Origin: the human T2T-CHM13v2.0 reference genome, Homo sapiens
Assembly (NCBI RefSeq): GCF_009914755.1
Contig: NC_060932.1
Length of the DNA: 64,000 bases
Reading direction: 5' to 3' (one strand)
The translations under genes were made by a program, and so were the position numbers. Below the pieces are notes generated by a model that saw nothing but the letters and a program-made list of their open reading frames with translations, was not told the origin of the DNA and ran no database searches. Positions 1-49,887 of this stretch are shown here, piece by piece (the first letter of the stretch is position 1; every line of letters starts with the position of its first letter).

Positions 1-3000
1 ATACCCAGTAATGGGATGGCTGGGTCAAATGGTATTTCTAGTCCTAGATCCCTGAAGAATCGCCACACTGACTTCCACAATGGTTGAACTAGTTTACAGT
101 CCCATCAACAGTGCAAAAGTGTTCCTATTTCTCCACATCCTCTCCAGCACCTGTTGTTTCCTGACTTTTTAATGATTGCCATTCTAACTGGTGTGAGATG
201 GTGTCTCATTGTGGTTTTGGTTTGCATTTCTCTGATGGCCAGTGATGGTGAGCATTTTTTCATGTGTTCTTTGGTTGCATAAATGTCTTCTCTGAGAAGT
301 GTCTGTTCATGTCCTTCGCCCACTTTTTGATGGGGTTGTTTTTTTCTTGTAAATTTGTTTGAGTTCATTGTAGATTCTGGATATTAGCCCTTTGTCAGAT
401 GAGTAGATTGCAAAAATTTCCTCCCATTGTGTAGGTTGCCTGTTCACTCTGATGGTAGTTTCTTCTGCTGTGCAGAAGCTCTTTAGTTTAATTAGATCCC
501 ATTTGTCAATTTTGGCTTTTGTTGCCATTGCTTTTGGTGTTTTAGACATGAAGTCCTTGCCCATGCCTATGTCCTGAATGGTAATGCCTAGGTTTTCTTC
601 TAGGATTTTTATGGTTTTAGGTCTAACGTTTAAGTCTTTAATCCATCTTGAATTAATTTTTGTATAAGTTGTAAGGAAGGGATACAGTTTCAGCTTTCTA
701 CATATGGCTAGCCAGTTTTCCCAGCACCATTTATTAAATAGGGAATCCTTTCCCCATTGCTTGTTTTTCTCAGGTTTCTCAAAGATCAGATAGTTGTAGA
801 TATGAAGCATTATTTCTGAGGGCTCTGCTCTGTTCCATTGATCTATATCTCTGTTTTGGTACCAGTACCATGCTGTTTTGGTACCAGTACCATGCTGTTT
901 TGGTTACTGTAGCCTTGTAGTTTGAAGTCAGGTAGTGTGATGCCTCCAGCTTTGTTCTTTTGGGTTAGGATTGACTCGGCAATGCGGGCTCTTTTTGGGT
1001 TCCATATGAACTTTAAAATAGTTTTTTCCAATTCTGTGAAGAAAGTCATTGGTAGCTTGATGGGGATGGCATTGAATCTATAAATTACCTTGGGCAGTAT
1101 GGCCATTTTCACGATATTGATTCTTCCTACCCATGAGCATGGAATGTTCTTCCATTTGTTTGTATCCTCTTTTATTTCATTGAGCAGTGGTTTGTAGTTC
1201 TCCTTGAAGAGGTCCTTCATGTCCCTTGTAAGTTGGATTCCCAGGTATTTTATTCTCTTTGAAGCAATTGTGAATGGGAGTTCACTCATGATTTGGCTGT
1301 CTGTTATTGGTGTATAAGAATGCTTGTGATTTTTGCACATTGATTTTGTATCCTGAGACTTTGCTGAAGTTGTTTATCAGCTAAGGGAGATTTTGGGCTG
1401 AGACAATGGGGTTTTCTAGATATACAATCATGTCATCTGCAAACAGGGACAATTTGACTTCCTCTTTTCCTAATTGAATACCCTTTATTTCCTTCTCCTG
1501 CCTAATTGCCCTGGCCAGAACTTCCAACACTATGTTGAATAGGAGTGGTGAGAGAGGGCATCCCTGTCTTGTGCCAGTTTTCAAAGGGAATGCTTCCAGT
1601 TTTTGCCCATTCAGTATGATATTGGCTGTGGGTTTGTCATAGATAGCTCTTATTATTTTGAGATACGTCCCATCAATACCTAATTTATGGAGAGTTTTTA
1701 GCATGAAGCATTGTTGAATTTTGTCAAAGGCCTTTTCTGCATCTATTGAGATAATCATGTGGTTTTTGTCTTTCGTTCTGTTTACATGCTGGATTACATT
1801 TATTGATTTGCATATATTGAACCAGTCTTGCATCCCAGGGATGAAGCCCACTTGATCATGGTGGATAAGCTTTTTGATGTGCTGCTGGATTCGTTTTGCC
1901 AGTATTTTATTGAGGATTTTTGCATCAATGTTCATCAAGGATATTGGTCTAAAATTCTCTTTTTTGGTTGTGTCTCTGTCAGGCTTTGGTATCAGGATGA
2001 CGCTGGCCTCATAAAATGAGTTAGGGAGGATTCCCTCTTTTTCTATTGATTGGAATAGTTTCAGAAGGAATGGTACCAATTCCTCCTTGTACCTCTGGTA
2101 GAATTCGGCTGTGAATCCATCTGGTCCTGGACTCTTTTTGGTTGGTAAGCTATTGACTATTGCCACAATTTCAGAGCCTGCTATTGGTCTATTCAGAGAT
2201 TCAACTTCTTCCTGGTTTAATCTTGGGAGGGTGTATGTGTCGAGGAATTTATCCATTTCTTCTAGATTTTCTAGTTTATTTGCATAGAGGTGTTTGTAGT
2301 ATTCTCTGATGGTAGTTTGTATTTCTGTGGGATTGGTGGTGATTTCACCTTTATCATTTTTTATTGTGTCTATTTGATTCTTCTCTCTTTTCTTCTTTAT
2401 TAGTCTTGCTAGCGGTCTATCAATTTTGTTGATCCTTTCAGAAAACCAGCTCCTGGATTCATTAATTTTTTGAAGGGTTTTTTGTGTCTCTATTTCCTTC
2501 AGTTCTACTCTGATTTTAGTTACTTCTTGCCTTCTGCTAGCTTTTGAATGTGTTTGCTCTTGCTTTTCTAGTTCTTTTAACTGTGATGTTAGGGTGTCAA
2601 TTTTGGATCTTTCCTGCTTTCTCTTGTGGGCATTTAATGCTATAAATTTCACTCTACACACTGCTTTGAATGTGTCCCAGAGATTCTTGTATATTGTGTC
2701 TTTGCTATCATTGGTTTCAAAGAACATCCTTATTTCTGCCTTCATTTTGTTATGTACCCAGTAGTCATTCAGGAGCAGGTTGTTCAGTTTCCATGTAGTT
2801 GAGTGGTTTTGAGTGAGTTTCTTAATCCTGAGTTCTAGTTTGATTGCACTGTAGTTTGAGAGACAGTTTGTTATAATTTCTGTTCTTTTACATTTGCTGA
2901 GGAGAGCTTTACTTCCTGTTCCAAAATGTGGTCAATTTTGGAACAGGTGTGGTGCGGTGCTGAAAAGAATGTATATTCTGTTGATTTGGGGTGGAGAGTT

Positions 3001-49700: not shown

Positions 49701-49887
49701 ACATCGCACTCTGGGGACTGTTGTGGGGTGGGGGGTGGGGGGAGGGATAGCATTAGGAGATATACCTAATGCTAAATGACGAGTTAATGGGTACAGCACA
49801 CCAGCATGGCACATGTATACATATGTAACTAACCTGCACATTGTGCACATGTACCCTAAAACTTAAAGTATAATAATAATTAAAAAA
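43742..49887 (+). mobile_element. Full-length LINE-1 'L1-C', L1PA3/PA4-like, inactive
   Basis: TSD aacatatttctg at 43730-43741 and 49888-49899. Has a 5'UTR, frameshifted ORF1 (44780..45238, 45235..45609), ORF2 pieces, G-rich 3'UTR and A tail. Confidence 0.97.
45859..47880 (+). pseudogene. Truncated L1 ORF2p (673 aa): APE-like endonuclease plus N-terminal part of the RT; frameshift before the FADD motif
   Basis: Starts with the native [14 protein letters not shown]. The frame is lost after GTRQGCPL, and FADD appears in the next ORF (47852..48466). Confidence 0.9.

What the first reader, a model, noticed from the sequence alone, without database searches (positions are those of the whole stretch)
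1..49887. Three neighbouring dead L1s share private mutations in a mosaic pattern: local interlocus gene conversion (concerted evolution of an intronic L1 cluster)
Seen directly: L1-B and L1-C each keep their own distinct TSDs, so they are independent retrotransposition events and not a segmental duplication. L1-B also has a visibly older 5'UTR and ORF1 than L1-A and L1-C. Yet variants that differ from the L1PA consensus as I recall it are shared in every combination. All three carry ORF1 ARRQ (vs ARRE), EN THLTSRD (vs TCRD), NSAV (vs NSAL) and the HC-stop. A+C carry DLHRD, HTCSK, aatgcttcatatc and the 5'UTR variants ccaagcttgc and caacacacctgc. A+B carry [12 protein letters not shown] and FCTAEET. 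B+C carry [26 protein letters not shown], gacaagcaaaggctg and gaagcaataaac. Inference: conflicting partitions across subfamily boundaries cannot arise on one tree, so repeated non-crossover sequence exchange between copies 10-45 kb apart, in both orientations, is the simplest explanation.
Basis: partly seen in the sequence, partly recalled or inferred. Interest (0 to 1): 0.85.

Follow-up and report, generated by a model that had tools for sequence, protein, structure and literature searches.

The report
Neighbouring dead L1s exchanged sequence
Three separately inserted, dead L1 retrotransposons in one STK3 intron share rare mutations in every combination, which is best explained by repeated copying of short stretches between them (gene conversion), a known process seen here in an unusually clear three-way example.

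Summary
L1-A (window 1-5653, minus strand), L1-B (15300-21433) and L1-C (43748-49879) are full-length, dead, independent insertions. Each has its own target-site duplication and their flanks are unrelated. I compared them with 33 A/C-type and 5 B-type copies fetched from the same genome. The three neighbours share rare, almost entirely non-CpG variants: A-C 15, B-C 8, A-B 5, all three 8. In 60 control triples the means were 0.68, 1.4-1.5 and 0.05. Exact k-mer counts over the whole genome put single variants at about 1% of copies. The combinations, however, occur only in the window copies. One A-C tract of about 1.2 kb (end of 5'UTR plus most of ORF1) has 10 differences in 1191 columns, against about 4% elsewhere. 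Switches of subfamily-diagnostic alleles lie next to shared rare variants, as short conversion patches would predict. A shared source lineage, parallel mutation and segmental duplication are each contradicted. An assembly artefact was not tested directly. The mechanism (non-crossover interlocus gene conversion) is inferred and is already known for Alu and other repeats, so this is a new member of a known kind. Interest is moderate.

The parts
1..5653 (-). L1-A, a full-length dead L1PA copy of A/C type. Its 3' end (~510 bases plus poly-A) lies just before the window.
   Evidence: TSD-like 10-mer at 5669-5678 and beyond the poly-A
15300..21433 (+). L1-B, a full-length dead L1PA copy with an older type of 5'UTR and ORF1, inserted into an older L1. 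TSD AGAACTAATAAATA at 15286-15299 and 21434-21447.
43748..49879 (+). L1-C, a full-length dead L1PA copy of A/C type. TSD AACATATTTCTG at 43730-43741 and 49888-49899, with 6 extra bases at the 5' junction.
44417..45585 (+). The C side of the A-C low-divergence tract (last ~350 bases of the 5'UTR plus most of ORF1). It has 10 differences in 1191 columns.
   Evidence: (LLR 20.3 against a null maximum of 10.3 in 100 shuffles). A 26-mer with three linked variants is found only in A and C genome-wide.
3819..4986 (-). The A side of the same A-C tract. A has 1 private base in 1174 here, against 73 in 3794 further 3'.
45585..45739 (+). B-C shared rare variants at C 45585, 45683 and 45739 (B 17125, 17223, 17279), at the 3' end of ORF1.
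   Evidence: Genome-wide there are 43 and 59 carriers of the last two, and only B and C carry both.
17448..17788 (+). A run of four consecutive diagnostic sites where B carries the A/C-type allele. It includes the three-way variant at B 17540 and the B-C variant at B 17787. This suggests transfer from A or C into B.
47538..47586 (+). A short patch in C with one B-C rare variant and two B-type diagnostic alleles. It is nested between the A-C shared variants at C 47490 and 47599. This suggests transfer from B into C.
981..1018 (-). A patch in A with two A-B rare variants and one B-type diagnostic allele (B 19925-19962). This suggests transfer from B into A.
   Evidence: The exact 44-mer occurs only in A and B genome-wide.
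407..465 (-). A patch in A with one A-B rare variant and one B-type diagnostic allele (B 20460-20518).
46257..46460 (+). Three A-C shared rare variants in ORF2 (A 2944-3147), outside the large tract.
45822..46372 (+). Three-way shared rare variants at C 45822, 46000 and 46372 (A 3582, 3404, 3032; B 17361, 17540, 17912). A fourth, a shared stop codon, is at C 49272 / A 105 / B 20824.

Best explanation
After three separate retrotransposition events placed L1-A, L1-B and L1-C 10-45 kb apart in one STK3 intron, the copies repeatedly served as repair templates for one another. This is non-crossover interlocus (non-allelic) gene conversion. It acted in both relative orientations, since A is inverted relative to B and C.

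Most events look old and short: patches of tens to a few hundred bases, in both directions between B and the two younger copies. One later event homogenised about 1.2 kb of A and C (the end of the 5'UTR and most of ORF1).

**Shown:** independent insertion; excess sharing of rare variants in all partitions; uniqueness of the tested allele combinations in the genome; the low-divergence tract; diagnostic-allele switches beside shared rare variants.

**Inferred:** the recombination mechanism (break repair by strand invasion and synthesis-dependent annealing, with patchy mismatch repair); the directions; the timing. From the non-CpG difference of 0.43% inside the tract against 3.62% outside, the large tract dates to roughly one eighth of the A-C divergence time. 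That is about 1-5 My if the copies are 15-20 My old. Both the age and the substitution rate behind this figure are recalled, not measured here.
For: **1. Independent insertions.** Each copy has its own TSD and the flanks are unrelated.

**2. Excess sharing against a panel of 33 A/C-type and 5 B-type copies from the same genome.**
- Shared rare variants: A-C 15, B-C 8, A-B 5, all three 8.
- In 60 control triples the means were 0.68, 1.4, 1.5 and 0.05, with maxima 3, 4, 4 and 1.
- Rare alleles shared with B: 18 full-length panel copies average 1.33 (maximum 6), while A has 12 and C has 15.
- The five other B-type copies share only 0-2 with A or C.

**3. Not hypermutable sites.** 34 of the 35 shared rare variants are not CpG transitions, and many are transversions.

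**4. Whole-genome exact counts.**
- Carriers of single variants number 43, 59, 92, 23 and 44. The majority allele at one site has 4714 carriers.
- Only B and C carry both B-C variants. Only A, B and C carry all three ORF2 variants.
- The exact A-B 44-mer is unique to A and B.
- The A-C 26-mer is unique to A and C even with one mismatch allowed.

**5. The A-C tract.** It has 10 differences in 1191 columns, with LLR 20.3 against a null maximum of 10.3. Two control pairs show nothing comparable. The A-C distance there (0.7-1.4%) is below the distance of either copy to any panel copy (1.7-2.1% at the minimum).

**6. Diagnostic switches beside shared rare variants.** B-type alleles in C at 47568 and 47586 sit next to the B-C variant at 47538. 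B-type alleles in A sit next to the A-B variants. A run of A/C-type alleles in B covers 17448-17788.

**7. The same signal elsewhere.** It appears in two other neighbouring pairs that happened to be in the panel. A chr13 pair, 19 kb apart, inverted and with unrelated flanks, has 24 such two-copy sites and 1 difference in 1461 columns. A chrX pair 173 kb apart has 6 two-copy sites.
Against: - No orthologous primate copies, other human assemblies or haplotypes could be examined. Neither the timing nor the absence of an assembly artefact is therefore shown directly.
- The small patches are interleaved with ordinary differences. For example, there are 6 B-C differences among the three B-C variants within 157 columns. 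The longest identical runs between the pairs are unremarkable. The small events must therefore be old, or the product of patchy repair, and their number cannot be counted.
- Three of the three-way sites in the 5' part are weak. C 44487 is hypervariable in the panel and lies 5 bases from a retained B-specific difference. The variants at C 44627 and C 45565 also occur in 1-2 panel copies.
- The B-type panel has only 5 copies.
- Only 5 single sites and 2 linked words (3 A-C sites in one, 2 A-B sites in the other), 10 of the 35 shared variants, were counted genome-wide.
- The two A-B variants also occur together, with one extra mismatch, in a chr3 copy and in two chr15 copies, which I take to be a duplicated pair.
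- One other element, seen as two copies on chr14 and chr22 that I take to be duplicates, carries two of the three-way variants.
- The shared indel positions are different-length deletions at slippage-prone sites and carry no weight.
Confidence: 0.8

Rival explanations
1. The shared variants were inherited. A, B and C descend from related, rare source lineages, possibly recombinant ones, and there was no exchange after insertion.
For: Each single variant tested has tens of carriers elsewhere in the genome. A few other copies carry two of the variants together.
Against: - Carrier numbers of about 1% are what independent recurrent substitution would give in copies of this age. This is my estimate, not a measured figure.
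- The carriers show almost no linkage. Of the 43 and 59 carriers of the two B-C variants, none outside the window has both. The three-way ORF2 combination exists only in A, B and C.
- The A-C 26-mer has no other carrier.
- Conflicting partitions across two subfamily types cannot fit one tree.
- One three-way variant is a stop codon in ORF2, which an active lineage is unlikely to carry.
- Inheritance cannot give a 1.2-kb tract at 0.8% divergence inside copies that are 4% apart.
- It also does not explain why the sharers are neighbours.
Confidence: 0.07
2. The shared variants are parallel mutations that arose independently at mutable sites in three old copies.
For: Some sites are variable in the panel (C 44487 shows all four bases). 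Overlapping but unequal deletions at two slippage-prone sites show that coincidences do occur. The stop-codon variant has 314 carriers genome-wide.
Against: - 34 of the 35 shared variants are not CpG transitions.
- Control pairs and triples of equally old copies share far fewer.
- A and C share no excess with the five other B-type copies.
- The shared variants cluster with diagnostic-allele switches.
Confidence: 0.05
3. The sharing is an assembly or polishing artefact, produced when reads were mapped to the wrong L1 copy.
For: Only one assembly was examined, and nothing here tests it directly.
Against: - The copies differ by 4-8% and lie 10-45 kb apart in unique flanks.
- Shared single bases sit within tens of bases of retained private differences. 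Mis-mapped long reads would not produce this pattern. That step is inference.
- The same kind of sharing appears at other neighbouring pairs.
Confidence: 0.03
4. The three copies arose by segmental duplication of one L1-bearing segment.
For: None found.
Against: Each copy has its own TSD, the flanks are unrelated, and the 5'UTR and ORF1 types differ.
Confidence: 0.01

Closest known systems
Non-allelic gene conversion between neighbouring Alu elements. This is Aleshin and Zhi 2010, as described in passages of PMC6598467 and PMC8230782. The original paper is not held.
   Same: Dispersed retrotransposon copies share non-diagnostic mutations more often when they are neighbours. Mosaics of diagnostic positions are read as conversion.
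   Different: - The elements here are 6-kb L1s, not 300-base Alus.
- The distances are 10-45 kb, whereas those passages give a range of about 10 kb for Alu.
- Three copies of two subfamily types are involved, in all partitions.
- One tract reaches about 1.2 kb.
Concerted evolution of duplicated genes and segmental duplications by interlocus gene conversion.
   Same: Divergence is reduced in tracts, gene trees conflict with the known history, and the rate depends on distance and identity (PMC6598467 passages).
   Different: The partners here are independent insertions, not duplicates of one locus. They are only partly homogenised: B keeps about 9% divergence from A and C in the 5'UTR and ORF1.
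Earlier reports of L1 gene conversion and recombinant L1s. I saw Burton et al. 1991 only as a title in a reference list. The recombinant young L1 calls in the pangenome preprint PMC13192797 I saw as passages.
   Same: L1 copies whose sequence is a mosaic of two parents.
   Different: From the passages I saw, the pangenome work screens young L1s for two-parent breakpoints and removes them. It does not address exchange between old, dead neighbours. I could not read the 1991 paper.

Membership tests
Interlocus (non-allelic) gene conversion between dispersed repeats | The partners are paralogous copies at different loci, not products of one duplication. | tested here: met
   Each copy has its own TSD and the flanks are unrelated.
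Interlocus (non-allelic) gene conversion between dispersed repeats | The partners share derived (non-ancestral, non-family) variants beyond what chance gives. | tested here: met
   Counts against the panel and whole-genome counts.
Interlocus (non-allelic) gene conversion between dispersed repeats | There are tracts of reduced divergence, or mosaic diagnostic positions, with breakpoints. | tested here: met
   The 1.2-kb A-C tract and the diagnostic switches beside shared rare variants. The small patches have no clean identity runs.
Interlocus (non-allelic) gene conversion between dispersed repeats | The exchange is non-reciprocal and leaves the flanks unrearranged (non-crossover). | tested here: inconclusive
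   The flanks and the STK3 exons between the copies are in normal order in this assembly (hub annotation). Non-reciprocity cannot be read from present-day sequences alone.
Interlocus (non-allelic) gene conversion between dispersed repeats | The change is seen at the orthologous locus in related species or haplotypes, before and after the event. | not testable with these tools
   No primate genome or second human assembly is held.
L1PA lineage, full-length element with the long 5'UTR form | About 6.1 kb long, with 5'UTR, ORF1, ORF2, poly-A and TSD. | tested here: met
   The ORF1 start lies about 1030 bases in for A and C. All reading frames are broken. The exact subfamily number was not assigned, because no reference consensus was available.

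The most novel reading that the evidence does not exclude
Sequence exchange between old, dead full-length L1s may be pervasive and depend on distance, reaching tens to hundreds of kb. That is well beyond the ~10 kb described for Alu.

The STK3 trio would then be one clear case of a general process. It includes a 1.2-kb conversion between inverted copies 40 kb apart that may postdate the human-chimpanzee split.

Support so far:
- All three sets of neighbours that happened to be in my panel show excess sharing.
- Outside the window and chrY, copies carrying the same rare variant are 7-300 kb neighbours in 25 of 6583 pairs. For copies carrying different rare variants the figure is 4 of 20445 pairs.

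Segmental duplications have not been separated out from those pairs.
Probability: 0.35. Interest if true: 0.6.

Novelty: new member of a known kind. Interest (0 to 1): 0.42.

Why it matters
L1 copies are dated and assigned to subfamilies on the assumption that each copy mutates on its own after insertion. Exchange between neighbours breaks that assumption in three ways:
- It makes parts of a copy look younger or older than they are.
- It creates false subfamily mosaics.
- It produces shared "private" mutations that can mislead phylogenies and mutation-rate studies that use repeats as neutral clocks.

Pairs that still recombine also mark places at risk of rearrangement. Here they lie in an intron, on either side of STK3 coding exons.

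The case gives concrete, checkable predictions for ape orthologues and human haplotypes.

Tried and rejected
- **Nearest-neighbour test with the genome search DNA queries.** This is unreliable. Only 40 of 5075-9408 candidates are scored, and neither A nor B was among them even though A is about 96% identical. I used a fetched panel instead.
- **Full panel.** The B-type panel therefore has only 5 copies.
- **Linked-site patterns with gaps.** I used single-site lists and intersected their coordinates instead.
- **Shared indels.** The two candidates are unequal deletions at slippage-prone sites and were dropped as evidence.
- **Longest identical runs.** They are not exceptional for any pair in the 3' two thirds of the element.
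- **Megabase-scale sharing on chr8.** Five further copies 0.3-1.0 Mb downstream carry one window variant each. Two of them are 16-26% diverged, which suggests they are older elements. The other three share at most two variants. I treat this as not established.
- **Rejected without a dedicated test.** Editing-type hypermutation at insertion would not be specific to neighbours, and most shared changes are not G-to-A. I also set aside insertion-time chimerism with a resident L1, which I recall leaves no TSD, because all three copies have TSDs.
- **Exact L1PA subfamily numbers.** I did not assign them. No reference consensus was at hand and I built none.
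Full report
**What is there**

Self-comparison of the window and a three-way alignment show three full-length L1PA elements.
- L1-A lies at window 1-5653 on the minus strand. 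Its last ~510 bases and poly-A are just before the window, fetched and read.
- L1-B lies at 15300-21433 (+).
- L1-C lies at 43748-49879 (+).

All three are dead, with many stops in both reading frames. The ORF1 start sits about 1030 bases into A and C. I recall this as the long 5'UTR form of the middle-aged L1PA subfamilies. I did not assign subfamily numbers, because no reference consensus was available and I built none.

**Independent insertions**
- B is flanked by AGAACTAATAAATA (15286, 21434).
- C is flanked by AACATATTTCTG (43730, 49888).
- A is flanked by a 10-base repeat (5669 and beyond its poly-A), with 9 extra bases at the 5' junction.
- One-kb flanks are unrelated apart from short matches between the A and C flanks that I take to be other repeats.

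Segmental duplication is therefore excluded.

**Overall relationships**

A and C are 95.6% identical. B is about 92% identical to either. The B-specific differences are concentrated in the 5'UTR and ORF1: 161 of 267 fall in the first ~1800 columns. Further 3' the three copies are nearly equidistant. B's closest relatives in the genome are 94% identical and C's are 97%.

**The panel**

The window's genome can be searched. I fetched 33 different A/C-type copies and 5 B-type copies.
- The A/C-type copies were the best hits to C's ORF1 region. They make 34 alignment rows, and 18-20 of them are full length.
- All were aligned with A, B and C.

Choosing the panel by similarity to C and B in one region cannot create sharing between A, B and C elsewhere. 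It does make the panel copies slightly less mutated than average in that region.

**Excess sharing**
- Over 861 sequence pairs, sites where exactly two sequences share a minority base average 0.47 per pair (95th percentile 2).
- The top pairs are a chr13 pair with 24, A-C with 10, a chrX pair with 6, B-C with 6 and, a little lower, A-B with 4.
- The most frequent three-sequence set is A,B,C, with 4.
- I then used a looser definition: an allele in at most 2 A/C-type panel copies and in no B-type copy. This gives A-C 15, B-C 8, A-B 5 and three-way 7-8.
- Sixty control triples give means of 0.68, 1.4, 1.5 and 0.05, with maxima 3, 4, 4 and 1.
- Rare alleles shared with B number 12 for A and 15 for C, against a mean of 1.33 (maximum 6) for 18 panel copies.
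- When any of the other five B-type copies takes B's place, A and C share only 0-2 with it.
- Of the 35 shared variants, 34 are not CpG transitions.

Apart from the unspecific 4-mer ARRQ, each is absent from, or nearly absent from, the panel.

**Are the variants lineage markers?**

Exact k-mer counts over the whole genome give these carrier numbers for five single variants:

| Variant | Position in C | Carriers |
|---|---|---|
| B-C variant | 45683 | 43 |
| B-C variant | 45739 | 59 |
| Three-way variant | 45822 | 92 |
| Three-way variant | 46000 | 23 |
| Three-way variant | 46372 | 44 |

- The majority allele at C 45739 has 4714 carriers. Each variant is therefore at roughly 1%. By my estimate, independent recurrent substitution in copies of this age would give about that frequency.
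- I intersected the coordinate lists. Only B and C carry both B-C variants. Only A, B and C carry all three ORF2 variants.
- One other element, seen as two copies on chr14 and chr22 that I take to be duplicates, carries two of the three-way variants.
- The exact 44-mer holding two A-B variants occurs only in A and B. At one mismatch there are 82 more hits. Nearly all carry one variant only, but a chr3 copy and two chr15 copies (which I take to be a duplicated pair) carry both.
- A 26-mer with three linked A-C variants occurs only in A and C, even with one mismatch allowed.
- The shared stop-codon variant has 314 carriers, and I did not measure a denominator for it.

A hidden sub-lineage carrying these combinations is thus not seen. 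Only 5 single sites and 2 linked words were counted genome-wide, which together cover 10 of the 35 shared variants.

**The large A-C tract**

Between alignment columns 680 and 1872 (C 44417-45585, A 3819-4986) A and C differ at 10 places in 1191 columns. Elsewhere they differ at 193 places in about 4600 columns.
- The likelihood-ratio score is 20.3, against a maximum of 10.3 in 100 shuffles. Two control pairs score within the null.
- The A-C distance in the tract (0.7-1.4%) is lower than the distance of A or C to any panel copy.
- In one search, A was the best genomic match to C's tract at 99%, with the next at 97%.
- A has 1 private base in 1174 here, against 73 in 3794 further 3'.
- The non-CpG difference is 0.43% inside and 3.62% outside.

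This dates the last homogenisation to about one eighth of the A-C divergence time. That is an inference with a wide error, since it rests on 5 substitutions.

**Small patches**

I defined subfamily-diagnostic sites as those where the panel majorities differ.
- B carries the A/C-type allele at four consecutive sites (B 17448-17788), around a three-way variant and a B-C variant.
- C carries B-type alleles at 47568 and 47586, beside the B-C variant at 47538. This patch is nested between the A-C variants at 47490 and 47599.
- A carries B-type alleles beside the A-B variants at A 981-1018 and A 407-465.

This co-location is what short conversion patches predict, in both directions. The patches are interleaved with ordinary differences, and identity runs are unremarkable. 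The patches are therefore old or reflect patchy repair, and I cannot count events.

**Weak items**
- Three three-way sites in the 5' part are at variable positions or next to retained B-specific bases.
- The shared indel positions are unequal deletions.

**Mechanism**

The best-supported reading is non-crossover interlocus gene conversion between neighbouring paralogous L1s, in either orientation. Crossovers between these copies would delete or invert intronic DNA, and for A-B or A-C they would also affect the STK3 exons at 11609-12453. That may be why only non-crossover products are seen, but this is inference.

Inheritance from a shared lineage, parallel mutation and duplication are each contradicted, as set out above. 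An assembly artefact is unlikely on general grounds but was not tested.

**Comparison with what is known**

Passages of PMC6598467 and PMC8230782 describe the following:
- gene conversion among Alu elements, strongest between neighbours within about 10 kb;
- its dependence on distance and identity;
- mosaics of diagnostic positions.

The pangenome L1 preprint PMC13192797 screens young L1s for recombinants and mentions gene conversion once (passages). A 1991 title on L1 gene conversion appears in a reference list, but I could not read that paper.

Four full-text searches found no study of exchange between neighbouring old L1s in the held library. Subscription journals are largely missing from that library, so this is not proof of absence.

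I file the finding as a new member of a known kind.

**Wider hint**

The two other neighbouring pairs that happened to be in the panel show the same signal.
- The chr13 pair is 19 kb apart, inverted and has unrelated flanks. It has 44 differences in 3352 columns and only 1 in 1461.
- Outside the window and chrY, copies with the same rare variant are 7-300 kb neighbours in 25 of 6583 pairs. For copies with different rare variants the figure is 4 of 20445 pairs.

Segmental duplications have not been removed from these counts, so this remains a lead.

Noticed in passing
L013 (G000:C13:79048013-79052218) and L032 (G000:C13:79067465-79074265): Two A/C-type L1s lie 19 kb apart in inverted orientation, and their 5' flanks are unrelated. 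They differ at only 44 places in 3352 columns, with 1 difference in 1461 columns, and they have 24 sites where only these two copies share a minority base. This looks like a stronger case of the same exchange between neighbours.
   Followed up: partly
L011 (G000:C23:123064726-123068925) and L035 (G000:C23:122892622-122899422): These two chrX L1s are 173 km... 173 kb apart and have 6 sites where only these two copies share a minority base (third highest of 861 pairs). Their flanks share only a 73% repeat match.
   Followed up: partly
genome-wide hit lists: Copies that carry the same rare L1 variant are 7-300 kb neighbours about 19 times more often than copies that carry different rare variants (25 of 6583 pairs against 4 of 20445; the window copies and chrY were left out). 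Duplications have not been separated from conversion.
   Followed up: partly
L056-L060 (G000:C8:100189640-100866550, 0.3-1.0 Mb after the window): Five further L1s downstream on chr8 each carry one of the window's rare variants. L056 carries two (the alleles at C 45739 and C 45822) and L059 carries two (the alleles at C 46329 and C 46372). Two of the five are 16-26% diverged, which suggests they are older elements. Regional sharing is not established.
   Followed up: partly
window 44127-44626: The RefSeq 'enhancer' feature from the hub annotation lies inside the 5'UTR of L1-C and spans the left edge of the A-C tract at 44417.
   Followed up: no
window 15200-15299 and 21448-22833: L1-B is inserted into a much older L1 ORF2 fragment. 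The flanks on the two sides continue each other and match L1 at about 66%.
   Followed up: no
window 46697-46760 (C) and L1-C query: C has a deletion of about 13-15 bases early in ORF2. Most genomic hits aligned only from query base 33 or 106 onwards, so the start of that stretch is unusual in C.
   Followed up: no
L050 (G000:C6:166733866-166740666): This unlinked panel copy shares 6 rare alleles with L1-B. That is the highest count among the 18 controls (mean 1.33). I have no explanation for it.
   Followed up: no
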